Shown piece by piece: positions 34,097-60,006 of a stretch of DNA of 64,000 nt. The stretch covers positions 1,488,001-1,552,000 of the forward strand of contig NC_089434.1 in assembly GCF_026210795.1 (NCBI RefSeq), given 5' to 3'. The notes beneath the pieces are model-generated. The model had not been told where the DNA came from, did not search any database, and was given only the letters and a program-made list of their open reading frames with translations. Each line of letters begins with the position of its first letter. The first letter of the stretch is position 1. The stretch comes from Rhizophagus irregularis (lineage: Eukaryota). A program made the position numbers and the translations under genes.

Positions 34097-34429
34097 ATCT
34101 ATCTACTCATGATTTATAATAATTATGCCATAAAATTCATAAAATTTATTTTATATCCGTAAAATTAAAATTTCCATCAAATTATTTAATTTTTTTTTGT
34201 AGTTATTGTCGAAACAAATAAAAAGGTTACTATAAATTTTTTTTCTGATAATTTATATATTTAATAATTTGAATAAATTTATTATACAATTATTTAAATT
34301 ACAAACTAAGAAAATTGTAAAAAATTTTACTACTCTAGTCTTAATGTTTAAATAATTCAAAATAAACATAAATAATAAAAGATAGAAATTTAAAAATATA
34401 AAAAAATTGTTAATTTATCAAAAGATAAT

Positions 34430-36721
34430 TTAAAATCCATCTAAGGAATAAATAAATAACAGATAATAGTAACAGGTTAGTAAATAAAATAAATAAAATA
34501 TCGTAAAAATATAAGAATAATAAAGTAATTAAGAACTTACCATCAGGAATTTCAAATTCATCTTGTTCATTTGAATGAAGATTTGGATTATTATGTATAT
34601 CATCATCATCATCTATAAATAAATAAATAAATATAATATAATGTAATTAAAGTTAGCTATTATTATGTAAGATTTTGCTTACCATCAATATTAATATTTT
34701 GCTTTTTTGTTTGTTTTTGAGTTATTTCTTTTTCATCATCTAAATTTTTTAAATAAATGACGTGTTTAATAAATGAAATTAGTAATTTACTTACTATTTG
34801 AATTTATTTGCAACTTTTTAAATACTTTAGATAATCTTTTACTGCTACCTAAATTAGGATTTTGATTTAATATTAAATTCAAATTCAATTATTTCTAACA
34901 TATAATTCAAATAAATATTACCTTTAAAAATATTAATTATTTTCGATGATTTGCTACTATTCTGTTTATTTGACCCGTTAAAATCATTAACTGAAAACAA
35001 ATATTAATTTATAAACATTGTTATGAAAAAAATTCAACAATATAGCGTTAAATACTTACTATCATCAGGAATGTTAAAATCATATGATTTACTATGAAAT
35101 TCTATTATAAAAAATAAACTATTTTAATATTAAATTGTTGATAATTAAAAAATAGCAAAAAATTATTAATACCTTCTTGTTCTTCTATTATAATTAATTT
35201 TAATTAAGAAATAATAATGTTAATTTATTTTAAAATAAACAAAAAAGATTAATAAAATATTATACACTTATACCTTCTGTTGCATTTCTTGGTTCAGGTA
35301 GATTTTCAAAGTTGTGAATTTTACTTGTAAATAATCTGCTACTCGTATAATTTCCTTTTACTTTATTCATTTCTAAATTATCTATTTTTGATTGGAAAAA
35401 TTCATCTGACATATTTTGACAATCTATATTAAATCTTTGCATTTTTTTCTCAAATGTATAAATATCAGGCCTTTTTAATGGATCAGCATCCCAACATTGT
35501 ACCATTAAATTTTTATATTCTAATGGAGTTCCTGACACAATTTTTGGCCTTATACCATTAATAATGTTCATTGCAAGATCATAATCATGTTCATAATTTA
35601 TAAATGGTGGTTGTCCAGATGAAATTTCCCACATAAGTATTGCAATACTATAAATATCAGATGCAAAAGTACATTCCCTTCCAACAATAACTTCGGGTGC
35701 TATATAAGGAAGATTTCCATATATACTTGTTGATGATTTATTAGCAGGTCCACAAAATCCTAGATCACTAATGTCCCAAGCATCATTTAATTGTGAATAT
35801 AATATGTTTCCAGAATGCAAATCTCTATGAATTGCATTTTCACTATGAATATGATAAAGTGCAAGAATTATTTCATCAGCAATCCTAATTCTATCTTTCC
35901 ATGTAAGTTGATTATGATTTTGCTGTAAATATTTTCTTAAATCTATATCCCTTTTCGCTATTACAAGCATATAATTTCCATTTGATATATCTTGTGTCAA
36001 TCCATAACATCGAACAATTTCTGCCCATTTATTACTTATGGTTAAATGTGATTTAGCCTAAATGACATGTTATTTGTTATTATAAAAACTCCAAATTTTA
36101 TAAATAAATTTCAAATAAAATTATACAAACCTCTTCAAACCAACTTTGATTTACACTCTCAACATTTTCTAACCTTTTAAGTATTACTTCAAATGTTCCA
36201 GCTCTTTTTAATTGTTTTTTTTCAGAATCCCATTCATCATAACGTCCATTAATCCAGTCTGCTGTATAAATTTCAGAAAATCCACCTTTTGTTAAATATT
36301 TAATATTTATTAAATTGCTGTAAGGAATCCATTCAACTACCATATTTGGCATAAGTGTTTCCATTTGACATTTCTGTATTAATTTATCAATATTATCATT
36401 TCCGGATGTCCAATTTGAAAAATTTTCTATTAAATAATTTCGAACACATTTTTCACAATATAATGTAGCTAAACATTCTTGATTACAATTTTCACAATTT
36501 CTTTTTGTACCATCATTATGCATAATTTTATTTCGATCATAACTTTTAGTTAATAATCTTATTGCGTAAGTTTTTTCATTTTTTGTAAGACTTTTATCAG
36601 CAAGAACTGTTTGTTTTTGAAATTCAAATTGTTTGTGTATATCATTGTAAATATTAGTATCTAATAATGAAAGCGTCCTGTTATTTGCTGCATAAATTAA
36701 TTCATATCGAAGAGTGGACAT
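34430..36721 (-). CDS. TKL-like protein kinase, copy 2
   Basis: Intact kinase motifs (HRDLHSGN, DLG, APE); two large exons plus 3' micro-exons ending DGF*. Confidence 0.9.
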
Positions 36722-37008
36722 AATGTAATTAATAAATTAAAAGGAAAGAAAGAATTGTGTTTCAAGTTCGTTACTCCGAGATAAATTAGTAAATGCAAAT
36801 TGTTGATCAAAACTTGTACCACTCTTGTACCACCATGTGAATTTAAATTCTGTGATCAGTATTCGACGCTCAAATAAAATAAGTACGGTATTTTACAATT
36901 AATAGAAAACATAATCTGTGTGACAAACTTTATTTCTATACTTAATAAATAAATAATTTATTATTTGGTTCAAATTGATTAATATATTCTATTTAAATAA
37001 ACAACATA

Positions 37009-37430: not shown

Positions 37431-38406
37431 ATATTAAAACTCATTAAAAAATCGTACATAAAAAACAAATACTTGTAGTATCTTTTCTAAGAGAGTTAAA
37501 ATTAGGTTATAGTATTGCTTCTTGTTTATTTATTAAAAAAATAAACCATTTTGCTCCAAATAAACAATAAAAAAAAATATTTCATGCTTTTTTTTCTATT
37601 TGATTAAGAATAATTTTTTTTTTGTTTATGATTATATTGTTAAATATTTTTAAAATATATTGATTAAGTTTAAAGTTTCCAAATCTTTTTTTTTAAAAAA
37701 GAAATTATACTGTAAATTACTTATTGCGTTGTAATTTTTTTAAAACTCTGTATCATACAGGTATTTTTAACTTTTTTCTCACAAACTGCGACTCTAAGAA
37801 TTTAAGCTTTTAAAAAATAAAAAGCATTTTTAAATATAATTTTTTAAATGTTATTATATAAAGTAAATTATACTACGAAAGATGAATTAAATTAAGAACC
37901 AAGAATCTTGATATATTGTGTTTATTACGTGTATGTATGAAATCTTTTTGACGACGATATACAGTGCGCGCAATACAAAAGCGTTTGTTTGTCTTTGCTG
38001 TGCGTCTCAATCGTCTCATGTATAAATTACTGTAGCGATACAAAGTACAAAATCCTGATTGCTCAGAGAGTCGCCAGACCGGAGTAGGTTCTTAATCGAA
38101 TCAATCAAACTTCGATCATAAAATATTGGCCTCGATTAAAATCGAACTAGGTTTTGATCGATCACATTGATTGATCATGGAAATGTGATGAAAATTGAAA
38201 AAAAATCGATTGATCAACCAAGGTTTTTGGACCTGCAATTTCTCGAGGGTAATTTTTAGAATCAATTAAATACCATACGCTAGAGATCTTTTAATAGTTT
38301 AAGTAAAAAAAAAAAAATATTGACACATAAAAATTCATTCAGCTGAATATTTTTTGCACTTACTGATTTTGTTGTAGATTTTATTCCGGATTACCATTTT
38401 ATATAG

Positions 38407-38551
38407 TTATTGGGTAAGAAGTATTCAATATGAAGATTTATGACCGTCGATGTTAAATGATTGGCCGTTATTGTGCCACGTAGTGGCACAATGGCCAATC
38501 ATATAATGTTGATGGTCAAAATGGTAATATTGAATACTTCTTACCTAATAA
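38407..38551. repeat. 145-bp imperfect inverted repeat (hairpin), loop GTA
   Basis: TTATTGGGTAAGAAGTATTCAATAT..TGACCGTCGATGTTA.ATGATTGGCC..ATTGTGCCAC-GTA-GTGGCACAAT-GGCCAATCAT.TAATGTTGATGGTCA..ATATTGAATACTTCTTACCTAATAA. Confidence 0.95.
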
Positions 38552-38810
38552 TGATTTTATTGTGGCAGACCACCAAGATCATGTTTTAAAAGTTTATTTA
38601 AACTTTCTTTTAAATTTCAATTTTTACGCGTCTTTTTCTTTACGCGTTTAAAAGTTTATTTAAACTTTCTTTTAAATCCACTCATTTGTACACATTTTTT
38701 CTTTACGCGTTTTTTCTTTTACACATTCTTTTTTATATACACTTTTTAAATACCCTACTTTTTCTTTACACATTTTTTTCTTTCAACCTATTCTATTATT
38801 TATTTTAATA

Positions 38811-40438
38811 ATGAAGGAAAAAACTAACAAAAATAAAATAAATAATGATAAAGTATGTTGTTATTATTACCAAAATATTGTTATATTAATTTGCTAATAC
38901 AATATTTTCTATTCAAGTTTTATTTACCTACAGAAGACGAAATAAATTTTTTCAAAAAGAAGTCAAGAGTAGTAAATACAGATAAATCCACAGCAAATTG
39001 GGTTCACCAATTTGAAAACTTTCGTGAAAAAGCTGGATTTACTGGTAAAAGCATAGATATTACTGATAGAAAGGAATTAGAAAGTCAAATCTGTAGTTTC
39101 GTAACAGTTATGAAGACTAATTCTGGTGAAGAATACAAGGCTAGATCTATCCTCAGTGCTATACATGCATTAAACCGACATTTAAATGATTTATCATCAC
39201 TATCTCCAATGGATTTTACTTCAAGAAAACAATTTCCAATATTATATGATGTATTAGATGGCAAAATGAAACATGTAGCAGAACAAGGAAAGGCCAATGT
39301 TCAAGGAGCTGATGGTCTTTCTGTTGAAGAATGTAAAAAAATACTGTATTCACCAGTATTAAACATTGACACACCCACTGGATTGTTAAAAAAAGTCTTT
39401 TTTTTAAATGCATTATTCTTAGCTCTTAGAGGTGGTGAGCACTATTCATTACAATATTCTCATTTTAAGTTTAGAGCTGATGGTCAGGGTTTTGATGTAA
39501 ATATTCCTCGAAGTAAAACAAATCAAAGGGGTATTAATGGCTCATTAAATGATGAAAAATTAAGAATTCCATATCATCCAATGATAATGGAAACTTATAA
39601 CAAATATTTTTCTAAAAGACCAGGTAATGCCGATAAAGAATTCTATTTAAGAGAATATGTGTCTGAAGATGGTGAGTTCAATGTACTTTATCATTTTATG
39701 CTATTTTTTTCAGTAATATGACATTTATTAGTTAACTTATTTATTTATTTATAGATTATATTATTTATAATCGTTGGTTTCAAAAGTTTCATGTTGGTGA
39801 AAAGCGATTAAAAAATTTTTTACATGAAATTGTAATAGAATGTGGTATTGATATTGGCAATCGAAAGATCAGCAACCATAGCGCCCGAAAAAGTTTAGTA
39901 GGAATATTGAAAGAACTTGGTACTAGTGACAATGAAGTTATGGCAATTACCCGGCATAAATCAAATTCAGGATTTACTAGCTATGAAAGAACTAAAGAAA
40001 AAATGCAGAATGTTAGTTTAAACAACTTAATGAACGTTCTTATAGATAATGATCAAATGGAAGGCTCGGGTGAGTTTTAATTTTAATTTTTAAATTGATT
40101 TTCAATATACTAATTATACAATATGGAATTTTAGATGTTTTAGAACCTTTGCCACATTTTTCAATGCCAGATAAGCAAGCATTAACACCAATTGAACTTA
40201 AATCAACTTTTACTAGTGCACGCGAAATTTTTAAAGGTAATTTATTAATAGTTTGTTTTATTTTATTTTATTTTATTGATTTCTATTAATAAAATTAGCT
40301 GAAATCAATCAAGAAAGCCGAATTCCATTTTCTAACAAATCCAACAAATTGACAATAAATGAAACTGAAACTTTACAGGATATTTTTAAAGGAAACGGAT
40401 CAATTTTCAATAATTGTACATTTGTATTCAATAGATAA
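38811..40438 (+). CDS. Tyrosine recombinase, Crypton/DUF3504-type, apparently intact, 5 exons
   Basis: Exons 38811-38852, 38918-39671, 39755-40069, 40135-40236 and 40299-40438 splice in frame. Catalytic R (LALRGGEH), K (SKTNQ), HxxR (NHSARK), H (RHKS) and Y (FTSYER); C-terminal FNNCTF motif. Confidence 0.88.
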
Positions 40439-43400
40439 TACTAATATAGTTTAAGTAACAGTTTTTCAAATTGCTGTACAGTATTAAGCTAAACTAATGT
40501 AAATGATATTTGGTAAATGACGTAATGCGTTAGCAATATTGAGCGGAAATTAAATAACATGATCCTATAGGGATGCCCAATAAAAATTATTATGCGTCTC
40601 GAATTTCGTTTTTTTTTTTGGAAAGATTCGCTTTATAATTTCAGCAATTTATTGTCAGCAGTTCATTGAATTTAGTTCCTTTGACTAATATTAAATTTAC
40701 ATATGCAACTTATTTTTTTATTACTAATCAAATATAATAAAATTTTATACTTTAACTCTGAGTCAAATTTCGTTTTGTTGAGTTACAATTTCTTTCTTTG
40801 TAATTTACGTTCTTAAATTTTGATTTCGTAAATAATTATAATATTACCTTCTACTTTTATCTCAATGATGAATAGGTATTATAATAATAAAAAATTTTAA
40901 TTTTCAGTTTTAACTAAAACAAAAAAATTCACTTAAGTCACACCAAAAAAAAATCACGATTTATTACAATTTATTACATAATTTTATATAATTAGGAATT
41001 TTTTTATCCCTTCCGTTTGCAAATAAAACCGATCTTTAATATTTATTGCTTTCTTCTCATTCCCTTATCTACAAATTAGCATCAAAATATTTGTTTTTAA
41101 AATTTAAATATTAATGTTAAAAAGCAGCAATTCTACTCAAGTAATAAGAGTATTTATGTAGAAACTCAAATGAAATAAAATAAAATATTTATCAACAACG
41201 TAATTTTAAATGAGAAATATAAACTTATCAAAGTTTCAAATATTATGTTTATGAACAAAAAAATTAACTCCAAAAATCATACAAGTTAATTATTGGTATT
41301 CAAATTCTTACATTGGTTTATTATGATCGAAATTTATTTTATTAAGGATAGATTAAATCACTTTAATTAGTCAAATTGATTTTAAAAAGACAAAGAACGA
41401 GACCAAGAACTAGAAAATGCTGAATTAACTACGGTTTGGTCGGATTTTACTGACCACCGATATTTCTATATATTGAAATCAGTATTAATAGCATTAATTC
41501 CTATTGGACACCGTAGTATTCTTAATTGTCAGTTATTGTATAGAGATATCGATATCTCTATTCCTCCGTCCAATCATTTGAAAACATCATATCACAGAAA
41601 ACTGTTTTTCAGTAAATATTTTAATATTTTTCTACCATTAATTTACCTATAATGGTTAATTTCAGTTACAGTATATAGTATAATATTGAATTTTTTTTTA
41701 ACAGATATTTTACAAATAATTAACTCTCAATTGTAATTTAGCATAGATAAAAAAATTTTTTAAGTATCTTACCAAGAATAAATATAGATTGAATGATTAA
41801 CTGAGCTTCATAATGACGTATAAAATGAATTTTTATTATTCCTGACCAGATACCGTTTCTTTAAAGGAAAACTCGTTAATATATTAAATATTTAAATATC
41901 TTGTCAATGAAAGAATTATCAATACGCCACAGCTTATCATGACCTATTATAAAAACAATTATCTAAACGGATAAATGTCAACAGAAATATTTTACATTAT
42001 AGTTTGATTTTTTATTTTTATCAATGAATGGATTATAATTTAACTTTTTACATTTAAGTGTTTGACGAAATAAGCTTATTGAATGAAAATCGTAAATCTA
42101 GTTACCACCTGTCAATTCTCAGTTTGATAAATTCTTTCATGTGAGGATTTGCTTTTTGACAAAAATAGGGAATTATGATATTTATAAAATGGTAAAACAT
42201 TTAACCTGGTTCTAGTCGATAGATCAAATGAAACACAACATTGTCTTAACGTACACTTTAATCTTAACTTTGGGTTTCATTGTATTCCTGATAAACTATT
42301 TCAATATAAACCACAAGCTTTATCTATATATTATAATTTTATTATGACATAAAAAGTATATTAATACAGTAATAGTTAAATAAAATCATCCATAGAAAAA
42401 TTTAATTTGTACGTAAGCATAATTATCTTCAGTTGGGAGAATCTCATGATTGCCAATAGCTTTTGGTACTTTATCACGAAAATTTTATTACGTGTATTTT
42501 ATTGGACCGATATAGTATTTTAAGTTTATATCGTATTACTTAGTTATTTAAAAAGGTTTTAAATTCATTTCAAAAAACTCTATTTAGGTTTTTAATAATT
42601 GTATGGGATACTTAATTAAGCTATAATATAGCTTGCGTTAATATAATTAAAAATATCTAAAATAGATAAATAAATTATAATGTGAGAAAATATATCATAT
42701 AAATTTATTAAAAAATATTATTATATAGTGTTTACAATTTTAATCATAATATATTCATTTAAAATTACTTTTTTATTTCACAAATCACATTAAATTAATA
42801 TGAACTTTGAAATTATAAATATAAGAAATATAAGAATGTAACAAAACATAATAATTTTATATCATATGAAAATATAAGTATTTAGATTATAATTAAAGAA
42901 TTTCAAGATACATAATACCTTGCAATTCAAATTTTTTTTAAAATATTAATATTATTTTAATTATTCAAAATCCATCTTAAAATTCATTATTATTAGATAA
43001 AAACAATAACATTTATTAACTAAAGAATCAACAATTTATTAATATATTTTCATTATCATAAGTCTTTCGCTCGTATCACGCACATGCAAAATTTACTTTA
43101 CTATAAATAATAACAGCAAAAATATATATATATTTTTTTCAAAAAAAAAATTGTCTTTAACAAATGTTATCCAAATAAACTAAGTTATAAATATGATAAT
43201 GGAAAATTAATGATGCAGTAACTTTTAACTTTATTAAGTTTATTTAAAATCAAAAAATCAAACTCGAAAATTAATTCCTAATATTCAGCAAAACCAAATA
43301 TTTAATGAAATACGCTTTTTATAGTATTACCGTTACGTAATATTTTAATTTCGTAGAACCATACACTGTAACTAGTAGCGATATACAAAATTTATAGAGA

Positions 43401-45162
43401 TTCATAAAATTTTTATGATTTGATTGATAAATTTACAACTTAAAATATTTGAATTGTTATTACTAAAAAATTTACATATACAACAAGAATGTCTTCATTT
43501 ACAATTCTATACCAAATTAAATCTAATGATTAGATGGTTTATCAATGGTTTAGTATATTATATGTTTGAAACCTGGAAATTTAAGATTTTTTCAATTGTA
43601 GAGTATTAATGCTATTTTTATTATTTATTATTATTGAATATAGATACTCATCAAAAAATGCAATCCAAAACATTAAATATTTTCATAATTTCTGGCTATA
43701 ATAAAATTTTACCTATAAATAAAAAAATATATATTCTTCAAATTCAGAAAGATTTCTTGTTAAGTCATTATTGCCTAAGGTAATCTATAAAATAAAAAAT
43801 ATGATAAAAATATATTAGAAGACTCGAGTACTCTAAGTAAGCTTTGTAGAAAAGACAGATTCAAGCCCCCATGCCTACTATCAACTGACATTAACGATAT
43901 ATTGTGAGTGATCAAACTCGTGCAGAGGTACTGTCACATTGATAATAAGACATGAGACCCACCACACCAAAGGGAAGGGCCCCACATACAGAAGTCTGCG
44001 ACATAGCTTGAGATATTATTATTTTCTCATTTAAGGTAACCAAACTTCTAGAAGAGGAGGATAACCAAAGCACTCTAGGTGCACAAATCCCTTATACATC
44101 CCAGCTTAGTCATTTCCACTTACCAAAATAATAAAAACCCCAAGATATTTATCATGTTTAAATAGAAATCTTCTAAAGTCTTTTACAATAACAAAAGTCT
44201 TATATGTATTTAATAAATAAAAATATAAGTTTGAGAAGTTATACTATAATAGATATTATATTAAAGAAATATAGCAAATATTGTATTAAAAGAAGACAAA
44301 AGTAAATTAAAAGGGAAAAAATTTTGAAAGTTAAAAAGTCTAATGAGAAAAAAAGTGACTTTATAAATAATTTTTCATGGGAAAATCATTAAAATCAGTC
44401 AAATCAGTCATTGTGATTAGTATGATGTAAGATTGTTTACGCGTTATACTGTGCACTAGGGAATTACGCGTATTGATCACGTTGGTTAATATTAATTAAG
44501 TACTTACTCTCACTCTTAAAGTTGAACTTAATCATAAAAATGAAAATTAAAGGTAATAGATGAACTCAACTTCAAAATAGAGTAAATATACATTTGTAAC
44601 TTTTTTTTTTCAATAACACATAATAAATTTCTTTATCAAGCATTTTTTGTTAACGGGTTGTCATAATTCTAATAATAACGAAAAATATTTTCACTTAATA
44701 TATTAATTGAATGAAAAACTTACCTTTTTTGTAATCTCTCGAGTTGTCAAAATTTCTTATGTGCGATTAGCTTTATATATAATGCTGGTTTTATTATTAG
44801 AATACAGTTAGTAACTTTGTCCAAAAAAATCTTATATCTAAGAGTTAGAGTATCAATTCTTTAATGTTATGAGATATAATTTACATTATTTTGGTAACGT
44901 AATTCCTCAATCCACAGATACCCAATAAATATATTATCCACTAAAATGAAAAAAATTCAAATATCAATAAACGAGAATCAAGAATTTATCAACACTTTGC
45001 AAAATGAGACGATGTTGTATACATTAATCTCGTAATTTTTCGCACGTGGTTATCTATCAATTTTATTAATCACGGTCGGTCTCTTATTAATAACTGGAAA
45101 ACCAATTCAATAATCATTTTTTAAAATTTTATACTTAAGATGTTTAAAAGTTTTTTTATTAT

Positions 45163-45312
45163 ATATTATTGTATAGGGGAGGAGCAATATCACTTATTTT
45201 AGTATAGGTCAATGTATGATTGGTTTTAATTTTGCCACGTCAGTGGCAAAATTAGTAACCAATCATACATTGACCTATAAAATAAGTGATTTTGCCCCCT
45301 GTACAATAATAT
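45163..45312. repeat. 150-bp imperfect inverted repeat (hairpin), loop GTCA
   Basis: ATATTATTGTATAGGGG..ATCACTTATTT..TATAGGTCAATGTATGATTGGTT.TAATTTTGCCAC-GTCA-GTGGCAAAATTA..AACCAATCATACATTGACCTATA-AAATAAGTGAT..CCCCTGTACAATAATAT. Confidence 0.95.
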
Positions 45313-47201
45313 TATTATCGTTTGGAACTGACCATAACATTTAAAAGCTTAAAAAAGTTTATTTAAAAGTTTAATTTTTTACTGTTTATATTGAAAAAAT
45401 GATTTACAAATTATGCTTTTTTCTCTTGCTGACTCTTTAGTATTTTTATAATAATGCCACCACAAAAATCTCAAAAGTAATATTTATTTGTATTCATTCA
45501 GTTAATATTTTATTTTATTTTTTTTTTGCATTTTATTAAAGATTTTTTTTTAGAATAAAAAAACTTTCACATATATGGCCCCTACTGAAGAAAAAATAAA
45601 AAGTATGCAAACAGCAGCTCGTGGCAAAGCTACACATAATTCTACAAGTACTTGGACTAATGCACTTGAAACTTTTCGTAAGTATATTGGATTACCTGGA
45701 AAAATAGATGATGTGAATTCTAAAGAAGAGTTAGAGCGTCAACTTGTTTTATTTTTTGTTTCATGTAAGCAGCAAAATGGAGCTGAATATTCAGTACAAT
45801 CAATAAAATCAGCAAGATTTGCTATTGCACGACATATCAACACATATTCTAAAATTCGTCCACAAGAAATTACAAATAAAAATATATATTCTGAATTATA
45901 TAACGCAATTACTGGCAAGATCAAACTTTTAACTGATTAGGGATTAGGTGAAATACATGGTGCAGATGCTTTTACTCAAGATGAGATTAGGAAAATTATT
46001 AATCATCCCACAATGCAACCAGATTTACCAAAAGGACTTATACGACACATATTTTGGCATAATACTTTTGAATTAGCTCTTCGAGGTGGAGAGCATTATA
46101 ATCTAAAGATACAACAATTTAAAAAAAGAAAGGATGGTGGTATTGACGTTACATTTTATAGATCTAAGTGTAATTAGAGATCTTTAAGTGAATCTAATTC
46201 TAAAGCTGAAGTAATTTCAATACCTGCTGATAATGCTGTTATTCAAGATTATGAGCTTTATTTTAGTAAAAGACCACCAATTTGTGAAGATGCATTTTAC
46301 TTGCAACCTTGCAACAATAATGAAGGTAATTATTTATTATGTAGTAAATTATTATTTTTTTTACCTTTCTTTTAATTTCAAATAGTTGAGTTTACAGGTT
46401 ATTGGTTCAAATCTGCTCAAATGAGAGGAAAATCGGTAAAAGGACTTATGAAAGAAATTGCAACATTAACTGAAATCGATTGTGATAAAAGAAAGTTCAC
46501 AAATCATAGTGGACAAAAAACCTTAATTCAAATTTCAAAAAGTGAAGGAATTAGTGATAATGATGTGATGTCTGTGTCACGGCATAAAAATCCTCACTCT
46601 TTGGCTTATTATGAACGTCCCAAGTCTATATTGCAGCAAAATACATTATCGCAAATTAATTCTTTAATTTATAATGGTAAGAAAAGAATTGCACCTGTGG
46701 TTTTAATGTAAAAGTAATATACAATATATTTATTATTTTTCTTTTCATTAGATACATTATTGTCAAATGACAAAAACTGCAAATTCTTTTTCTTCAGCCT
46801 TAGAAATTTTCAATGGTAAGATTTAAATTATGAACTAATAATTCTTATGGTATAAAAAATTTTATTTTTTTTTAGAATCACGGTCACCACTTCAGCAGCT
46901 CAACTCAAATGATTTAAACGAATTAAATGATGATCAACAAAATCAAGAAATTAACGGAAATGATGAGACCATTAAAAAAATTCTCCATGGGAATGTTTTT
47001 CAGAATTGTAATATTACATTTAATGTGAATAAATGATTTTTATACGAATTTTATTATATGTACACTTATAAATAGCTTATTTTAATAATATAAAGTATAA
47101 ATAGTTTATATAAAGTATAAATGGTTTATTATGATATTATAAAGTATAAATAAAATATCTAAAAATATAGTATGTTATGATCATATGTACCTGAACGATA
47201 A
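45166..47201 (+). mobile_element. Crypton-like tyrosine-recombinase element 2 (hairpin module plus TIR-bounded YR module)
   Basis: Hairpin 45163-45312; TIR-L 45314-45340; YR pseudogene; TIR-R 47172-47202. Confidence 0.8.
45454..47036 (+). pseudogene. Crypton/DUF3504-type tyrosine recombinase pseudogene
   Basis: LALRGGEHY, RSKCN*R, NHSGQK, RHKN, AYYER and FQNCNI motifs; in-frame TAG at 45938 and 46175; intron layout equivalent to element 1. Confidence 0.85.
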
Positions 47202-49096
47202 TTGCTTTTATTGCAACTTTTATCTTAAAAGCACTAATTACAAATATAATGATTATTATATAATAAAGTAATTCATTAAGGAAAATAAGAACAGAGTTTC
47301 CAATAGCATATCTAACATTATGAAAATTTAATATGTATTATAAATTTTATAACCAAAAGGATAACATTACTAGCCCTATTCCGCACGTTATCTAACTGTT
47401 TCCTTTATAGCTAAGTTTATCATTTTGTAGCAAAATCGCATAAATTTTTACCAAATATTCTTTAAGATTAAATCTTTTTTATTCAAGTATTTATAATATC
47501 ACTTGAAATTTTTTCCCATAAGACTATAAGGTTAGATTTTATTGTAACAAGTATTAGACGTATTAGACATCAATATTGTACAAATCTAGAAATGTTGAGC
47601 GAAATACTTAAACATCGTCAATTAGCTAAATTTTGGCAGTATTTCTTCATAAATTAGTTTGCGTCCCTTTTTTTTGTCTTATAAATAAAAATATCTCAGA
47701 AGCCTTAAATTATATATGTATATATATATATATACAGTACTTATATCTGCTACTATATTCTTTAAAAAAAATTAAGTAAAAAAGCTTTTATTTATGTTTT
47801 AATGGCGTTAAAACAGCAAAAATTAGTACCGCAAATTTTCCATTTTTTCCATTTTTTTATTTGGAATTTTCCAACTTTTTGATTTTTCAAGCTAAATAAC
47901 TTCGCAAAAATCAAATTTGAAGCTTTAAAATATACTGCATCGCCCTAAATTACATATTCTGAATATAATACAAAGTGTTTATTTTTAGATTATTAAGTTT
48001 AAAATGGGGTTTCAATTAGCGTATTAGCAATTAAATAATAAAACAAATGATGATTGGCAAATTAGTAATCTATAATTAAGATATCCTACCAGATATTACT
48101 GTATCACCCATAAAATGAATTAATTAGTTTTAGTCTAATATAAATTATATAGTTAAATAGGTCAGTTTCGGATTGTAGATCTGACGACATTATATCTGGT
48201 AAAGTTTGATCTTCCCGCCCTTTTTTCTTTTCTTTTTTTGTTCAAGCTATGCTTTATTGTATATTATATTAAACCATCATGAAATGATCGATTTGGAAGA
48301 ATTATAAAAAAAAAGAAATAGTATTGTTTTAAAAAACATACTAATTTGATACTATATATGATAGTAGCAAGATACAGTATAATCAGATTACAAAATATCA
48401 AGGTTCATCAAATATAAGGCATGATTTGAAATACAAATCTTAAGATATCATAAATATAAGATAACTCTTAATTTGTTGTCTAATTAAAAATTTTTTCTAA
48501 TCATACATAATTAAAGTTTTGTCTTAACGAATAATATAATTACAATAATATTTTGTAACCGATAAATTTTCATCTTCATAAATAGTCAATAGATATAAAA
48601 TCTGTAATATTAAATATTATTATTCAAAAATTTTTGTAATTAAATAAATTTAGAGTCAAAATCTCAAAAATTGATATATGGTTTTGGATACAACATATAA
48701 TTCTTTTAAACTTCAGTTAAGTTTCGCAAATAATTAAAAGATTTATGATATCTGCTGAACATGTCAATAGCTAGAAAATCAGTTTCAGCAAATGTGTTCG
48801 GTTACAATGGTATGAGATGAAATAGACAAATGATTCGAATGATCAATTCTCAAGTACCAAATGTGATATTAATTATGGCTTTTTTATTTAAAATCATATG
48901 GTAAGTTATCAACCAATCAAAATGAAATGATTATGAAATTAAGCAAATCCTTTAAATGGTTAAATGACTAAACACTGTAGAAAATAACTAGAAATATCAG
49001 AATAATCATAGATAAAATCAGTATTGTATTGTATAATTGTCTCAAGAATGGGTTTTTTTTTAATATTATACCCGTCATGTGAATCACTAAAAATTT

Positions 49097-49271: not shown

Positions 49272-49336
49272 TATGAATCACAGTATACAGTACATGCCAA
49301 TGCAAATCTCCCTCTCCTCTTCATTCTTCCTCTAAA

Positions 49337-50755
49337 ATGTCTTTACCTATTTTAAATTCAGATATTATTCTTGAGATTATCAAGAATTCAAAAGATAATA
49401 CGGGTAGTTTATTTAACTTTCTTTTTGTAAATAAATATTTCAGTAAAGTAGCTGTATCAGTTCTCTGGGAAAATCCATTTAAATATCGTAATTTATTAAG
49501 TAGGGACAGTCAAAATTATTCGATCATACAAACTTATATTAACTTTTTTAATGAAGAGGAATGTAATGAAATCAACCAAATCTTTAAAAATATTAATGAA
49601 GTCTTTAAATTTAATAATGAACAAGAAAAATCACTTCGTTTTCATTATGGAAAATATTTAAAAGAATTTAATTTTCAAGTTACAAGGAAAGCAATAGATT
49701 CATGGTATAGTATTTTTAAAGAAAAGAATAATATAAAAAATGGTAGTTCACGTTATAATATTGAAGAATGTATCATGAAATCAATTATGAGACAATGTCA
49801 AAAATTAGATTCCTTGAATTGGGGGATATGTTTAGTGAATGAAGGTTTATTAAAAATTATGCAAGATAAAATTAAGGATTTGAAATATTTTACAATAGAT
49901 CATTATTATAGTATTAACTATGAAAAAAGTATTTTTGGTTATTTAAAAAATCACTGTAAAAATATTTCATGTTTAACAATAGATGATTATCATGATATAT
50001 GTGGTGATAAACTTACAGAAGAATTTATTTCTTTTATTGAATTACAAAATGGTCTAAATGAATTCATCCTTGATCATGCGGAAGAAGAATATGAGTATAA
50101 AGATCTTATCACAAGCACATTAGAATTTCAAGCTAATAATTTAACTAAAGTGATATTAAATGGAGTGGATTTTAGCGATATATCATTTGATTATATTGAC
50201 AAGTGTATTAATTTAAAAGTATTAGGATTAAGATATAACAAAGGGTTAATATTTGATGATATGGATTTATATACTTCATTTAAAAATCTTAAAATATTGG
50301 ATTTAAGTTATAATGAATGGTCATCTGAAGTAACTACTTTGATTATTAAGAAAGCAGGAAAGAGTTTAACTTCTTTGACAATTGGAGAAAATAATATTAA
50401 ACAAGCAATTAATGATGATACTTTAATTGCTTTGACAAATTCTTGCCCAAATATTCGTTCATTATCAATTTCCAAAACTTCTAGTGAAAGCATTAAAATG
50501 GTTCTATCATATCTTAAAGATTTGAAATTAGTTACTTTACAATTATTTCAAATTGAAAAAAAAGGTACAGTTATGAAATCTGAAGATCTGTTGAATTACA
50601 TAGAAAATGAAAAATCTCTATTTAAATTGGGATTAGGTAAAAATGACAAGTATTGGGATTATTATAATGAAAGACGTAGAAATTTTGAAAAATTTTTGAA
50701 AAAGCATAATGTTAAGTTGATCGCATATAAACCAAAAAATAACAACGTATTATGA
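49337..50755 (+). CDS. F-box / RNI-like LRR protein, single exon
   Basis: LNSDIILEII..SLFNFLFVNKYFSKVAVSVLWENPF F-box start, followed by LRR-like repeats (LKILDLSYN, CPNIRSLSI). Confidence 0.85.
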   Translation: MSLPILNSDIILEIIKNSKDNTGSLFNFLFVNKYFSKVAVSVLWENPFKYRNLLSRDSQNYSIIQTYINFFNEEECNEINQIFKNINEVFKFNNEQEKSLRFHYGKYLKEFNFQVTRKAIDSWYSIFKEKNNIKNGSSRYNIEECIMKSIMRQCQKLDSLNWGICLVNEGLLKIMQDKIKDLKYFTIDHYYSINYEKSIFGYLKNHCKNISCLTIDDYHDICGDKLTEEFISFIELQNGLNEFILDHAEEEYEYKDLITSTLEFQANNLTKVILNGVDFSDISFDYIDKCINLKVLGLRYNKGLIFDDMDLYTSFKNLKILDLSYNEWSSEVTTLIIKKAGKSLTSLTIGENNIKQAINDDTLIALTNSCPNIRSLSISKTSSESIKMVLSYLKDLKLVTLQLFQIEKKGTVMKSEDLLNYIENEKSLFKLGLGKNDKYWDYYNERRRNFEKFLKKHNVKLIAYKPKNNNVL

Positions 50756-51920: not shown

Positions 51921-52557
51921 CCTACATTCTTTCATCGGTTATCGTTTGTATTCTAATTATTTCTTTAGGTCTTTATAACTTGTTTCTTGTTTCTACTTTG
52001 TTTACAAGTCAAATTATATGTTGTGATTGTTAACCTTCTATACCTGTTTGGCTTATATTGAGGGTGTAGACCTCCCGACCTCCCGTGCCTGCTTGGTTGC
52101 CTTTCAAAGTACCAAGATGGTGTAAAAAAAAGGTGTCAGGTGGCACAGTAAATTTGTGCTGGCACTATGCTATAATTCTAGCCAATCTTTTGGGCACATA
52201 ATTGCGCCCATTCATTTGTTAAAACAATCTTTTGAAATAAAGATCAACTATAAAATATCAATCACCTGATTGATAGCTATAAAAATTTCTTTTATTTTAT
52301 ATTCGGAAAATTAAAATTTCCATCAAATTATTTAATAATATTTCTTGTAGTTTTACTAAAAAATTTGTTTTTACTGATAATTGTATATTTAATAATTCAA
52401 ATAAATTTATTATACAATTATTTAAATTACAAACTAAGAAAATTGTAAAAAATTTTACTGCTCTAGTCTTAGTGTTTAAATAATTTAAAATAAATCATAA
52501 ATAATAAATGATAGAAATTTAAAATATAAAAAAATTGTTAATTTATAAAAAGATAAA

Positions 52558-54868
52558 TTAAAATCCATCTAAGGAATAAATAAATAACAGATAATAGTAA
52601 CAGGTTAGTAAATAAAATAAATAAAATAGTAAAAATAAAGAATAATAAATTAATTAAGAACTTACCATCAGGAATTTCAAATTCATCTTGTTCATTTGAA
52701 TGAAGATTTGGATTATTATGTATATCATCATCATCTATAAAAAAATAAATAAATAGAATTAAAAATGGTATTAATGTTAACTATTATTATGTAAGATTTC
52801 GCTTACCATCAATATTAATATTTTGCTTTTTTGTTTGTTGTTGTTGAGTTATTTCTTTTTCATCATCTATATTTTTAAATAAATGGCGTGTTTTAATAAA
52901 TGAAATTAATATAATAGCGACTTAATTTGTTTGTAATTCACTTACTATTTGAATTCATTTGCAACTTTTTAAATACTTTAGATAATCTTTTACTGCTACC
53001 TAAATTTGATATTAAATTCAATTTCAATTTATTATTTCTAACATATAATTCAAATAAATATTACCTTTAAAAATATCAATTATTTTCGATGATTTGCCAC
53101 TATTCTGCTTATTTGACCCGTTAAAATCATTAACTGAAAACAAATATTAATTTATAAACATTGTTATGAAAAAAATTCAATAATGTAGTGTTAAATACTT
53201 ACTATCATCAGGAATGTTAAAATCATATGATTTACTATGAAATGCTATTATAAAAATAAATTATTTCAATATTAAATTGTTGATAATTAAAAAAATAACA
53301 AGAAATTATTAATACCTTCTTGTTCTTCTATTATAATTAATTTTAATTAAGAAATAATAATGTTAATTTAATTTAAAATAAACAAAAAAGATTAATAAAA
53401 TATTATACACTTATACCTTCTGTTGCATTTTTTGGTTCGGGTAGATTTTCAGCAAATTGATGAATTTTACTTGTAAATAATCTGCTACTCGCATAATTTC
53501 CTTTTACTTTATTCATTTCTAAATTATCTATTTCTGGTTGAAATGATTTATCTGACATATTTTGATAATCTAAAATAAGTCTTTTCATTTTGGTCGCAAG
53601 TGCGTCAGCATCAAGTCTCTTTAATGGATCAGCATCCCAACATTGTATCATTAAATTTTTATATTCTAATGGAGTTCCTGTCACAATTTTTGGCCTTATA
53701 CCATTAATAATGTTCATTGCAAGGTCATAATCATGTTCATAATTTATGAATGGTGGTTGTCCAGATGAGATTTCCCACATAAGCATTGCAATACTATAAA
53801 TATCAGATGCAAAAGTACATTCTCTTCCAACAATAATTTCAGGTGCTATGTAAGGAAGATTCCCATATATACTTTTTGATGATTTATCTGCAGGTCCACA
53901 AAATCCAAGATCACTAATATGCCAAGAATCATTAAATTGTGAATATAATATATTTCCAGAATGCAAATCTCTATGAATTGCATTTTCACAATAAATATAA
54001 TAAAGTGAAAGAATTATCTCATAAGCAATCCCAATTCTTTCTTTCCATGTGAGTTGATTATGATTTTGTTGTAAATATTTTCTTAAATCTATATCCATTT
54101 TCATCATTACAAGCATATAATTTCCATTTGATATATCTTGTGTCAATCCATAACATTGAACAATATCTGGCCATTTATTACTTATGGTTAAATGTGATTT
54201 AGCCTAAATGAAAACATGCTATTGTTAATAGAAGAAATATAAATTTTTAAATAAATTTCAAATAAAATTATACAAACCTCTTCAAACCAACCTTGATTTG
54301 CACTTTTAACATTTTCTAACCTTTTAAGTATTACATTTTCATCTCCAAATCTTATTAATTGTTGTCTCTTAGAATCCCATTCATCATAACTTCCATTAAT
54401 CCAGTCTGCTGTATAGATTTCAGATAATCCACCTTTTGTTAAATATTTAATATTTTTTAAATTACTATATGGGATCCATTCAACTATCACATTTGGTCTA
54501 ATTGTTTCCAATTGACAATTCTGTATTAAATCATCAATACCATCATTTCCAGACGTCCAATTTGAGAAATTTTCTTTTAAATAATTTCGAACACAATATT
54601 CACAATATAATGTAGCTAAACATTCTTGGTTACAATTTTCACAAATTCTTCTTGTACCATCATTAAGCATAACTTTATCTCGATCATAATTTTTAGTTAA
54701 TGACCTTATTGCAAAAGTTTTTTCTTCACTTGTAAGAATTTTATCAGCAAGAAGTATTTGTTGTTGGAACACAAATCGCATATGTATATCATTATGAATA
54801 TTAGTATCTGTTAACATTACTATTCTATTCTTTGTTGCATAAATTAAATCATATCGAAGAGTGGACAT
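52558..54868 (-). CDS. TKL-like protein kinase, copy 3
   Basis: Same exon structure and kinase motifs as copy 2. Confidence 0.9.
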
Positions 54869-55024
54869 AATGTAATTAATAAATTAAAAGGAAAGAAAGA
54901 ATTGTGTTTCAAGTTTGTTACTCCGAGATAAATTAGTAAATGCAAGTTGTTGATCAAACTTGTACCACTCTTGTACCACCATGTGAATTTAAATTCTGAG
55001 ATCTTAAGGCGCGGCAGTACCGAC

Positions 55025-55618
55025 TGTTACGCAGTAAAATGTTGCGCAGCAATCATGTGATATAACTGGACCCGTGATGCCGATCAATGTAGCAAATGTC
55101 GAATATGTTTGACATGTTCGATATGTCGCATATGTCCGATATGTAGAATATATAGAATATATGGAACATGTAGCATATATGAGATATATAGAACATGTAG
55201 CATATATGGGATATATAGAACATGTAGTATATATGGAATATATAGAACATATAGCATATATAGGATATATAGCATATGTAGCATATGTTAAACATTTTTA
55301 GTTTGGAAATTTATGTATATATAGACCTATAATTAGACCTAAATTCAATATAGAACGTGTGTGAAGAATTTAATTAATAAAATGTTTACCCTTTAATATA
55401 CACCTTAATTTTAAGTTTGGTTTTATATGGTTAATCTGCCTTCCCTTATTTGTGTCTGATTGTATGCGCCAGTGTGAAGCGATACTCTATTCACATCTGA
55501 TTGGATTGATTTTAACATATACTGACGTTGATCCTTAAAATTACCTTCTGCTTTATTAAATATAAACATTTTTTAATGTATAGCTTATTTTTAAGCTTAT
55601 AAGAACTGACCTCTAACA
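55025..55618. mobile_element. Solo LTR (or Ginger-type element), 594 bp
   Basis: TGTTA..TAACA ends; 4-bp TSD CGAC (55021-55024 and 55619-55622); empty site CAGTACCGACGCTC at ~59033; internal 27-bp repeats at ~55140-55290. Confidence 0.85.
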
Positions 55619-56542
55619 CGACGCTCAAATAAAAAATGAGTACGAAATTAATACTTGTGTGACAAAATCTTTCTCAATAATTAATACTAGTATTTATTAT
55701 TTTATTTCATATTGATTAATATTTTATTTTGACGAAACAAAAAAATCTAAACTTTCGAAGTGATTGTGTCTTTAATAGATTAAATTAATTAATTGTATTA
55801 TTTAAAATTAACAACATATCGAGTAACGGATATTAGAAATTATAAGAAGCCATATTCAAGTTAGAAAGGAACTTTAGTAGAACCATCATTTCTTTTTTTG
55901 TAATTATGGATTACGATTAAATTAAATATATAACTTGATATAAGCAAATTAAATAATAAATGAAAGAAATCATTACGTTGAGATTTAAGAATTTAGTATG
56001 TAGTAACTTCACAATAATAACATTTCTGTTCAATCTAAAATTGCAATTAATTTTTTTAAAAATGTTAGTGACTTAATGTAGTGATATATATTCAGAAATT
56101 TTTATACGCGCAAAATGTAAATTAGCCTTGAAAAATTTTATGCAATCATATGTGAGAGTAAATAATTATAGCGGCAATTAATCATTGGGCTAAAACAAAA
56201 TCTTTTGAAATAAAGATTATCACCTGGTTGTTAGCTATAAAATTCCTTTCATATTCGGAAAATTAATATTTTCATCAAATTATTTAATAATTTTTCTTGC
56301 AGTTTAATACTGGATAGAACAAATAAAAATCGTTACTATAGAATTATTTTTTACTGATAATTTATATAGTATTTAATAATTTGAATGAATTTATTATACA
56401 ATTATTTAAATTACAAACTAAGAAAATTGTAAAAAATTTTACTACTCTAGTCTTAGTGTTTAAATAATTCAAAATAAATTATAAATAATAAATGATAGAA
56501 ATTTAAAAATATAAAAAAATTGTTAATTTATAAAAAGATAAT

Positions 56543-58893: not shown

Positions 58894-60006
58894 AATGTAA
58901 TATAAATTAAAAGGAAAGAAAGAATTGTGTTTCAAGTTCGTTACTCAGAGAAAATTAGTAAATGCAAATTGTTGATCAAAACTTGTACCACTCATGTACC
59001 ACCATGTGAATTTAAATTGAGATCTTAAGGCGCAGTACCGACGCTCAAATAAAAAATGAGTACGGTATTTTTTAAATTATTAAAAAACATTTGTGTGACA
59101 AAATCTTTCTCAATAAATTAATAGTATCTATTATTTGATTTCATATTGATTAATATTTTATTTTGACGAAACAAAAAAATCCAAGCTTTTAAAGTGATTG
59201 TGTCTTTAAACGATTAAATTAATTAGTTGTATTATTTAAAATTAACAACATATCGAGTGATGGATATTAGAAATTATAAGAAGCCATTCAATTTATTATT
59301 TTCTTTAAAGAAGCCATATTCAAGTTAGGAAGGAACTTTAGAAGAACCATCATTTCTTTTTTTGTAATTATGGATTACGAATAAATTAAATATATAATTT
59401 GATATAAGCAAATTAATAATAAATGAAAAAAATCATTACATTGAGATTTAAGAATTTAGTATGTAGTAACTTCACAATAATAGCATTGCCGTTTAGTAAT
59501 CTATAATTGTAATTAATTTTTTAAAAACTGTTAGTGACTTAATGTAGTGATATATATTCAAAAAATTTTATACGCGCAAAATGTAAAGCCTTGAAAAATT
59601 TTATGCGGTCATATGTGTGAGTAAATAATTATAACAGCATCCATTCATTGGGTTAAAACAAAATCTTTTGAAATAAAGATATACTTTAAAATATCAATCA
59701 CCTGGTTGATAGCTATAAAATTTTTTTTATATTCGGAAAATTAAAATTTTCATCAAATTATTTAATAATTTTCTTGACTGGGTAGAACAAATAAAAATCG
59801 TTACTATAGAATTTTTTTTACTGATTATTTTATATATTTAATAATTTGAATAAATTTATTATTCAATTATTTAAATTACAAACTAAGAAAATTGCAAAAT
59901 ATTTTACTACTCTAGTCTTAGTGTTTAAATAATTTAAAATAAATTATAAATAATAAATGATAGAAATTTAAAATATAAAAAAATTGTTAATTTATAAAAA
60001 GATAAT

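What the first reader, a model, noticed from the sequence alone, without database searches (positions are those of the whole stretch)
38407..47202. Two divergent tyrosine-recombinase elements share a 'hairpin - 5 bp - TIR[YR]TIR' layout resembling a folded ssDNA att site
Seen in sequence: both elements have four half-sites in the same order. Element 1 has TTATTG(38407)..hairpin..TAATAA(38551), spacer TGATT, then TTATTGTGGCA-N9-GATCATGTT(38557-38585)..YR..AACATGATC-N9-TGCCCAATAA(40556-40583). Element 2 has TTATTG(45166)..hairpin..CAATAA(45309), spacer TATTA, then TTATCGTT..TGACCATAACAT(45315-45340)..YR..ATGTTATGATCA..AACGATAA(47172-47201). The arm sequences differ between the elements, but the geometry, the 5-bp spacer and the TTATYG/YRATAA half-site are kept. 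Established: tyrosine recombinases act on inverted binding sites around a short spacer, and integron attC and CTXphi attP are used as folded single strands. Inference: in a circularised single strand, the hairpin stem and the paired TIRs would stack across the spacers into one complete recombination site. That would imply ssDNA-hairpin-based transposition in a eukaryote. Alternatively, the two modules could be excised or inverted separately. Cryptons are known to have subterminal inverted repeats, but I do not know this four-half-site arrangement as described.
Basis: partly seen in the sequence, partly recalled or inferred. Interest (0 to 1): 0.9.

Follow-up and report, generated by a model that had tools for sequence, protein, structure and literature searches.

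The report
Hairpin-ended integron-like fungal jumping gene
These are two copies of a mycorrhizal-fungus jumping gene (a CryptonA/Glomhopper recombinase) that moves as one unit with a 145-base DNA hairpin at its front end, and the junctions suggest it likely inserts as a folded single strand, as bacterial integron cassettes do, a route we did not find described for eukaryotic transposons.

Summary
The layout is real. E1 (38400-40583) carries an intact 450-aa DUF3504 tyrosine recombinase (YR). E2 (about 45159-47201) is a broken copy of another family. The proteins are Glomhoppers (CryptonA); that paper could not define their ends. Hairpin and gene move as one unit: two isolates lack both at this locus, with no target duplication, and 5-11 near-identical copies per isolate run unbroken from a fixed leader through hairpin, spacer and left repeat. 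Three more families (40-51% aa to E1) show hairpin, 5-nt spacer and left repeat; 24 of 53 stem pairs covary. The fixed left and variable right spacer fit exchange of the top strand only. Best model (0.55): a folded single-strand site, like integron attC or CTX attP. No circle or activity was shown. This scan noted similar hairpin-ended YR elements in other genomes (unchecked).

The parts
38400..38406 (+). E1 7-nt leader TATATAG, owned by the element; predicted to be the spacer of the circle junction
   Evidence: Absent from both empty alleles. The multi-copy contigs begin at 38399-38402 with 0-1 differences in X7, X16, X17 and X19 and at 38399 in X18.
38407..38551 (+). E1 hairpin a...a' (left arm 73 nt, loop 3, right arm 69 nt)
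   Evidence: Depth close to that of the gene in X16, X17 and X7.
38458..38487 (+). Conserved hairpin core: inverted CCAAT box, 10 nt, then GCCACG-loop-GTGGC
   Evidence: Shared by E1, E2, L002 and L005. That these resemble NF-Y and bZIP sites is recalled, not tested.
38552..38556 (+). E1 internal 5-nt spacer TGATT
   Evidence: 5 nt in 5 of 5 intact left ends.
38557..38585 (+). E1 left (inner) inverted repeat b, one base longer than b'
38811..40438 (+). Intact DUF3504 tyrosine recombinase gene, 450 aa; predicted exons 38811-38852, 38918-39671, 39755-40069, 40135-40236, 40299-40438; RGGE, SKT, HxxR, RHK and Y motifs present
   Evidence: 4 GT-AG introns of 62-83 nt, a single stop at the end.
40556..40583 (+). 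E1 right inverted repeat b' and right end of the element
   Evidence: Empty alleles rejoin at 40584; family contigs end at 40584-40586.
40584..40595 (+). Host target half: 6 nt, then a TTATG half-site mimic
   Evidence: Present in both empty alleles; same register in E2, L002 and L005.
45159..45165 (+). E2 leader TTATATA (length inferred by analogy with E1)
   Evidence: no empty site was seen for E2.
45166..45309 (+). E2 hairpin (arms 73 and 67 nt)
   Evidence: A contig of another copy runs 45212-46337 across hairpin, spacer and gene (X18 record 20).
45310..45314 (+). E2 internal spacer TATTA
45315..45340 (+). E2 left inverted repeat b (4 nt shorter than b')
45454..47036 (+). E2 recombinase pseudogene: exon 1 out of frame, stops at 45938 and 46175, HSGQ where relatives have HSGR, a further frameshift near the 3' end
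   Evidence: 36-37% aa identity to E1.
47172..47201 (+). E2 right inverted repeat b' and right end
   Evidence: A family contig stops matching at 47202 (X18 record 22).
47202..47213 (+). E2 host target half: 6 nt, then TTATTG

Best explanation
Each unit (leader, hairpin, 5-nt spacer, inverted repeat, recombinase gene, inverted repeat) is one CryptonA/Glomhopper DNA transposon, and it likely transposes like a self-mobile integron cassette, by exchanging only its top strand at a site formed when that strand folds. SHOWN: the unit's ends, insertion without target duplication, a fixed left leader, a host-derived right spacer and conserved pairing of the hairpin. INFERRED: (1) The recombinase nicks the top strand at host|leader and at b'|host and joins b' to the leader, copying out a circle. 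(2) In that circle b'-leader-a...a'-spacer-b is contiguous and folds into one long stem with a central 7x5 bubble, as single-stranded DNA or as a cruciform. (3) The enzyme cuts at b'|leader and exchanges one strand with a double-stranded host site that looks like a core site (arm mimic, 6 nt, TTAT). (4) Replication resolves the junction. The outer arms a and b' probably also act as ordinary double-stranded binding sites; the inner arms a' and b probably serve mainly as pairing partners.
For: One unit: empty alleles join 38394 (X17) and 38386 (X16) to 40584 with 5 letters between, which places the insert at 38400-40583. Family contigs cross hairpin, spacer and left repeat unbroken in X16, X17 and X7; hairpin versus gene depth is 214/247, 808/700 and 2595/2485. 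The same left end appears in L002, L004 and L005. Strand asymmetry: the leader is shared by the roughly 5-11 copies per run and the right spacer is host DNA. The crossover b'|leader is the position where a YR cuts the top strand (chemistry as in PMC4246890 passages). Target: TTAT starts exactly 7 nt after b' in 4 of 7 flanks (p 4e-6, or 3e-4 allowing 3 offsets; post hoc). The first host base is complementary to the last spacer base in 4 of 4 complete elements, but equals the first leader base in only 2 of 4. Structure over sequence: 24 of 53 pairs change on both sides across 4 families, with 0 of 500 shuffles as high. G·T pairs favour the top strand 11 to 2 (p 0.011), and the top strand folds better in 5 of 5 hairpins. 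Unpaired extra bases sit on the left arm 23 to 2; the left arm is 72-73 nt in four families while the right arm varies from 66 to 70. In-silico circle junctions fold with b paired to b' in 4 of 4.
Against: No circle or tandem junction (40583 back to 38400) is among the 5 joints, though contigs drop rare forms. There is no replication protein to make single strands, and CTX integration is irreversible, so the excision step departs from that model. The first-base rule is also met if the leader slips one base (leader base 2 pairs with spacer base 5 in 4 of 5). 3 of 7 flanks lack TTAT. One run (X16) shares only 5 of the 7 leader bases among all its copies. Both empty alleles differ from the window next to the site (substitutions; an 8-bp deletion in X16), so the crossover could be off by a base. 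G·T bias fits an RNA hairpin equally well; 5 of the 11 pairs come from E1, and E1 and L002 are related. E2's circle junction folds slightly better on the bottom strand. The fold is closest to Cre (Z 21.4), not IntI (16.6). The invariant CCAAT/GCCACG core points to an added sequence-specific role. L003 has the gene and right end without hairpin or left repeat, and animal-like L008 shows no clear match to the layout.
Confidence: 0.55

Rival explanations
1. One mobile unit, but it moves through a double-stranded circle with strand-biased exchange at the outer ends only (Crypton, Tn916 or SE style). The palindrome serves as a promoter or a protein-binding, DNA-bending accessory module rather than as a recombination substrate.
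For: The standard Crypton model is a double-stranded circle (PMC13565253 passage). SEs show top-strand-only circularisation, yet their circles are double-stranded and nicked (PMC10214605). The CCAAT/GCCACG core is invariant at a fixed distance from the left end. The fold is Cre-like.
Against: It does not explain pairing kept over about 70 bp where sequence is not conserved, an inner junction fixed at 5 nt in 5 of 5, inner arms that drift in length yet stay complementary, or strand-biased G·T pairs. In SEs the 6-bp spacer comes from the donor flank and lands on the right; here it is family-fixed and on the left.
Confidence: 0.27
2. The hairpin works as RNA (a transcribed stem-loop that regulates or guides the recombinase), and the DNA reaction uses only the outer ends.
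For: The top strand is the coding strand, so G·T (G·U) bias and compensatory changes fit RNA equally well.
Against: The hairpin arms begin with the same half-site as the repeats (E1 a TTATTGGGTA versus b' TTATTGGGCA) and end in recombination-site register. There is no Rfam match. A 70-bp RNA stem would be expected to invite silencing (general knowledge). Transcription was not tested.
Confidence: 0.08
3. The hairpin is a separate non-autonomous element that is co-mobilised or targets these ends, and the modules excise or invert independently.
For: All four arms are similar half-sites, so extra recombination routes are possible on paper. Hairpin MITEs are common here (22190-22315; L002 362-519). 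Hairpin depth exceeds gene depth by up to about one copy in X17 and X7.
Against: Both empty alleles lack both modules; contigs do not branch at 38551-38557 in X16, X17 or X7; depths match within about one copy; order and orientation are the same in 5 of 5. The loose-end table hid 103 rows, so rare separate copies are not excluded.
Confidence: 0.05
4. The palindrome is a telomere-resolution site that the enzyme converts into hairpin ends of a linear intermediate.
For: Protelomerases are YR relatives that act on palindromes, and the centre of the palindrome is conserved.
Against: The model matches Cre (Z 21.4) far better than TelA or TelK (7.5, 6.8). The loop varies between 3 and 4 nt, L004 has a different centre, and the observed crossover is at the element ends.
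Confidence: 0.03

Closest known systems
Glomhopper / CryptonA (DUF3504 YR transposons; PMC13465315, PMC3212892)
   Same: A single intron-containing DUF3504 recombinase gene with catalytic residues, in an AM-fungal repeat-rich region beside kinase repeats, multicopy and polymorphic among isolates.
   Different: Those papers define no ends ('no detectable repeats'; no terminal repeats in animal Cryptons, listed n.d.). Here the ends, inverted repeats, terminal hairpin, leader and target are defined, and the 4-6 bp direct repeats of other Cryptons are absent. An intron-bearing copy is intact and recently mobile, against the suggestion that intron-rich copies are less likely to be active.
Integron gene cassette with attC (PMC2727003, passages)
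   Same: A gene between one pair of arms and a hairpin between a second pair; unpaired central spacer, extra bases on one arm, structure conserved over sequence; one strand recombined (inferred here).
   Different: The element encodes its own recombinase; there is no attI platform or array; it is eukaryotic; the enzyme is not IntI; bulge positions are not fixed across families.
CTX phage attP(+) (PMC4246890, passages)
   Same: Two inverted core sites with unequal central regions (12 and 5-7 bp there; 7 and 5 here) around a stem, about 150 nt; single strand exchange resolved by replication (inferred here).
   Different: CTX uses host XerCD at one dif site, makes single strands by rolling-circle replication and integrates irreversibly. 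This element has its own enzyme, many loose targets and no Rep.
[quoted passage not shown]
   Same: YR elements with imperfect terminal inverted repeats and top-strand-only circularisation.
   Different: They have four core genes, a donor-derived 6-bp spacer moved to the right end and double-stranded nicked circles; no long hairpin appears in the passages read.
CryptonF-1_cRei (PMC9977147) and Starships
   Same: Eukaryotic YR transposons; CryptonF excises cleanly yet rises in copy number.
   Different: They use a short terminal motif homologous to the target (CACCG/CAYCG); the words palindrome and inverted repeat do not occur in that paper's main text. For Starships I saw only search listings and the Glomhopper paper's summary.

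Membership tests
Glomhopper / CryptonA | DUF3504-type tyrosine recombinase as the only gene | tested here: met
   PF12012 E 1.3e-5 on exon 2 alone (below Pfam's cut-off) plus QRICH1 and Phage_integrase hits; homologues carry PF12012; one spliced ORF.
Glomhopper / CryptonA | Catalytic R-K-H-R-H-Y residues kept | tested here: met
   E1 has all of them; E2 has Q in place of the second R, and stops.
Glomhopper / CryptonA | Glomeromycota host | tested here: met
   Top named hits are Rhizophagus, Gigaspora and Funneliformis proteins; two match E1 segments at 100%.
Glomhopper / CryptonA | Placement in the Glomhopper clade on a YR tree | not tested
   No tree was built; the assignment rests on similarity.
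Crypton (general definition) | 4-6 bp direct repeats at both ends | tested here: not met
   The E1 empty sites show no duplication, and the flanks of E1, E2, L002 and L005 show no direct repeat. The feature was never shown for CryptonA.
Crypton (general definition) | No terminal inverted repeats | tested here: not met
   Inverted repeats flank the gene in E1, E2, L002 and L005.
Crypton (general definition) | Circular intermediate | tested here: inconclusive
   No circle joint in the contigs of four runs; contigs cannot show absence.
Integron cassette / attC | Four arms that fold into a site with an unpaired centre and one-sided extra bases | tested here: met
   In-silico circle junctions fold this way; extra bases 23 left to 2 right. 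Predicted folding only.
Integron cassette / attC | IntI integrase, attI platform, GTTRRRY R boxes | tested here: not met
   The protein is DUF3504 type, the arms start TTAT or ATAT, and there is no array. It may work like an integron cassette, but it is not one.
Integron cassette / attC | Enzyme recombines only one folded strand | not testable with these tools
   Needs biochemistry; only junction asymmetry is in hand.
CTX-type IMEX | Host XerCD, dif target, rolling-circle Rep | tested here: not met
   It has its own recombinase, varied targets and no second ORF inside the ends.
SE elements | Four core genes and a donor-derived 6-bp spacer placed at the right end | tested here: not met
   One gene; the leader is family-fixed and on the left.
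Protelomerase system | TelA/TelK/ResT-like fold | tested here: inconclusive
   A homologue's model lists TelA at Z 7.5 and TelK at 6.8, against Cre at 21.4; a weaker match does not exclude the activity.

The most novel reading that the evidence does not exclude
CryptonA/Glomhopper elements are eukaryotic self-mobile 'integron cassettes'. Their own tyrosine recombinase copies out the coding strand and integrates it through a folded single-strand att site by one strand exchange and replication, a transposition route not described in eukaryotes. Unchecked notes from this scan suggest that the same end architecture may extend to coral and protist YR transposons.
Probability: 0.5. Interest if true: 0.92.

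Novelty: new variant of a known kind. Interest (0 to 1): 0.8.

Why it matters
A 2026 review says the Crypton mechanism has not been shown experimentally (PMC13565253), and the Glomhopper paper could not find element boundaries. These results give exact ends, a target rule and an intact, recently mobile copy with an identical family sequence, so the question becomes directly testable. They also allow about 1,800 reported copies to be re-annotated. If the folded-strand model holds, structure-defined recombination sites, so far known from bacterial integrons and filamentous phages, also work in eukaryotic nuclei. That bears on the origin of the DUF3504 genes ZMYM, QRICH1 and KCTD1, and could yield a compact integrase with loose targets and no double-strand break. 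AM fungi are also hard to transform, and a native active element is a possible tool.

Tried and rejected
No whole genome was held for the window, so no genome-wide census was possible.

Hairpin-core patterns gave 0 matches in viral contigs. A looser pattern gave 4 viral and 4 prokaryotic matches; none folds into the long hairpin. The four viral loci gave only one weak tblastn hit (E about 0.003) and the bacterial loci none, so I rejected them as chance. The YR alignment found 0 relatives among 35 candidates in viral contigs.

The metagenome scan gave 8 loci from 86 candidates. L001 and L007 are too short upstream. L006 starts 4 nt before its left repeat. L003 has lost its left end next to another TIR element. 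L008 (GC 45%, animal-like) has only a weak 54-nt hairpin downstream, so it is inconclusive. L004's right end was not identified in its contig.

No circle or tandem junction appeared in contigs; this is not evidence of absence. No empty site for E2 was among the 15 joints shown (99 hidden). The X19 break at 38570-38580 falls at a GATC, as do other breaks in that run, so I read it as a library effect, not a boundary (inference).

There is no Rfam match. The fold search does not separate IntI-like from Cre-like use, and I did not test for an IntI-type extra helix. ATon elements (PMC3422177 passages) insert at A|T without duplication, but no recombinase or hairpin is mentioned, so I did not adopt them as a relative. 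The junction motif alone is near chance.


Full report
SETTING. The window is AT-rich eukaryotic DNA with tandem kinase genes. Named homologues of the recombinase come from Rhizophagus, Gigaspora and Funneliformis, and two match E1 segments at 100%. It is therefore an arbuscular mycorrhizal fungus, most likely Rhizophagus irregularis or a close relative (inference).

OBSERVATION. The hairpins are far beyond chance (z -15.9 and -17.1) and are the strongest folds in the window scan. E1's repeat pair is the best of 63,961 positions; E2's is matched or beaten by 14.

GENE. E1 splices through four GT-AG introns to 450 aa with all catalytic motifs (splicing predicted, not seen in RNA). E2 has two internal stops, HSGQ for HSGR and frame breaks; other copies of its family carry 13 more bases in exon 1. 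Pfam gives DUF3504 below the cut-off on a single exon. A model of a full-length homologue (P0022, 53% identical to E1 exon 2; pLDDT 91) matches Cre best (Z 21.4, rmsd 3.4, 304 aligned), then XerH (17.3) and integron integrase (16.6). These are Glomhoppers, the fungal CryptonA subfamily of PMC13465315.

ONE MOBILE UNIT. Twenty of 24 listed runs hold part of the stretch. I laid five different runs in two calls: X16-X19 on both elements and X7, X16, X17, X19 on E1. All are contigs. E1 depth is about 5.5 times (X17), 6.5 times (X16) and about 10-11 times (X7, X19) the flank depth, with almost no differences, so the family is young; depth is only a rough copy estimate. X17 and X16 have single-copy contigs joining 38394 and 38386 to 40584 with five letters between (TAATT, TATTT), which align to window 38395-38399. 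The insert is therefore 38400-40583, including hairpin and gene, between T and A, with no duplication. Both alleles also differ from the window next to the site, so a one-base uncertainty remains. High-depth contigs begin at 38399 (X7, X19, X18), 38400 (X17) or 38402 (X16) and run through hairpin, spacer and left repeat to 38614 in X7, X16, X17 and X18; X19 breaks at a GATC. On the right they end at 40584-40586 (X18 at 40591). Hairpin and gene depths agree within about one copy in X16, X17 and X7. The leader TATATAG is thus element DNA, while the bases after b' are host DNA. For E2 the family is about 12-fold in X16, one contig links hairpin to gene, and one ends at 47202; no empty site was seen.

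OTHER FAMILIES. The metagenome scan returned 8 loci. Five have enough upstream DNA. Three of these (L002, L004, L005) have hairpin, 5-nt spacer and left repeat; L003 lost its left end beside another element; L008 is animal-like and unclear. L006 starts just before a recognisable left repeat. L002, L003 and L005 have the right repeat, and L002 and L003 (99.4% identical) diverge one base after it. The five intact left ends belong to recombinases only about 36-56% identical in their best aligned segments. Across E1, L002, E2 and L005, 24 of 53 pairs change on both sides. With four related sequences and a structure derived from them, this shows maintained complementarity, not function.

ASYMMETRIES. 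The left arm is 73, 73, 72 and 73 nt; the right arm is 69, 67, 66 and 70. Unpaired extra bases lie left 23 to 2, G·T pairs favour the top strand 11 to 2, and the top strand folds better in 5 of 5. The GATCATG-like motif lies at +20 in b' of E1, E2, L002 and L003 (best match +17 in L005), but at +15 to +21 in b. Outer arms therefore look spacing-constrained and inner arms pairing-constrained (inference). In the host, TTAT begins exactly 7 nt after b' in E1, E2, L002 and L005, but not in L003 or in two other E1 flanks read from loose ends (4 of 7). If a 7-nt leader is assumed for all families, the leader starts with T in 5 of 5, and the host left flank ends in AATAA or AATAT, like an arm, in 3 of 5.

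MECHANISM. [quoted passage not shown] The crossover b'|leader is that position on the top strand only. Two-strand exchange between unlike spacers would be expected to leave the element's spacer left or right and to randomise it over cycles (inference from Tn916-type excision as summarised); instead it is fixed and always left. Joining the ends in silico makes b'-leader-a...a'-spacer-b one contiguous stem with a 7x5 centre. This is the geometry of folded attC (PMC2727003) and of CTX attP. In such a site the incoming host base must pair with the last spacer base, which holds in 4 of 4 complete elements, whereas identity with the first leader base holds in 2 of 4; a one-base slip of the leader would also satisfy it. 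I commit to top-strand copy-out followed by integration of a folded site. Rough odds: single mobile unit 0.93, top-strand-only exchange 0.7, folded substrate 0.55. How the circle is released is unknown. The main rival (0.27) is a double-stranded circle with the palindrome as promoter or accessory site; SEs show that strand bias does not prove a single-stranded intermediate.

LITERATURE. I ran nine full-text searches; none listed a paper describing this end structure for Cryptons. What I saw of each paper: PMC13465315, parts 1-5 of 9 (abstract to most methods) plus a term search with 0 hits for hairpin, stem and circular. Its supplement is cut; I saw part 1 and a term search, and not the flank table that the text cites, which may bear on novelty. 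PMC3212892, passages and a supplement term search (CryptonA ends 'n.d.' in the two rows shown). Passages only: PMC3422177, PMC9345347, PMC10214605, PMC2727003, PMC4246890, PMC9977147, PMC13565253, PMC11075540. Not seen: Goodwin 2003, Repbase entries and most subscription journals. The labels NF-Y, bZIP and MCB are recalled, not tested.

EARLIER NOTES OF THIS SCAN. Three unchecked AI notes describe hairpin-plus-inverted-repeat YR elements in coral, a euglenid-like genome and one other genome. I had reached my reading before seeing them, and they are not counted as evidence. Searches by sequence and by place found nothing.

VERDICT. This is a real, conserved and apparently undescribed terminal architecture on a known transposon family. 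It comes with an intact, recently mobile copy and a specific, testable mechanism that is still inferred. New variant of a known kind; interest 0.8.

Noticed in passing
window 38626-38710; L001 27-111; L005 800-953: Clusters of ACGCGT between the left repeat and the start codon (3 in E1, 3 in L001, 5 in L005, partly in tandem repeats); none listed for L002, L003, L004 or L006, and none inside E2. It resembles the fungal G1/S MCB box (recalled), which would tie expression to S phase.
   Followed up: partly
window 24974-27513, 34139-37004, 52208-62607: Five related copies of a kinase-like gene, 78-90% identical, three of them in a tandem run.
   Followed up: no
window about 22190-22315: A small MITE-like element with about 30-bp GC-rich inverted ends; no recombinase nearby.
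   Followed up: partly
window 43786-44112: A very high-copy repeat between the two elements (depth roughly 50-180 times the flank in four runs); unidentified.
   Followed up: no
window 41470-41526 and 43118-43150: Short repeated segments with many loose ends in other isolates, probably ends of other mobile elements.
   Followed up: no
L002 362-519: A second, unrelated 158-nt hairpin element about 110 nt upstream of the Glomhopper hairpin.
   Followed up: partly
L003 153-718: An element with TACAGT-type inverted ends sits where the Glomhopper left end should be.
   Followed up: partly
L008 1860-1990: An animal-like CryptonA locus with an ATGATCATAAC motif, a 54-nt hairpin and a CCAAT box downstream of the gene; may be a decayed or reversed version of the layout.
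   Followed up: partly
window 40586 (run X17 loose end): One other E1 insertion is followed by AATATAG-TTA, nearly the element's own leader and arm start, suggesting that targets resembling the circle junction are used.
   Followed up: no
window 49277-50755: A single-exon 492-aa leucine-rich-repeat ORF next to E2.
   Followed up: no
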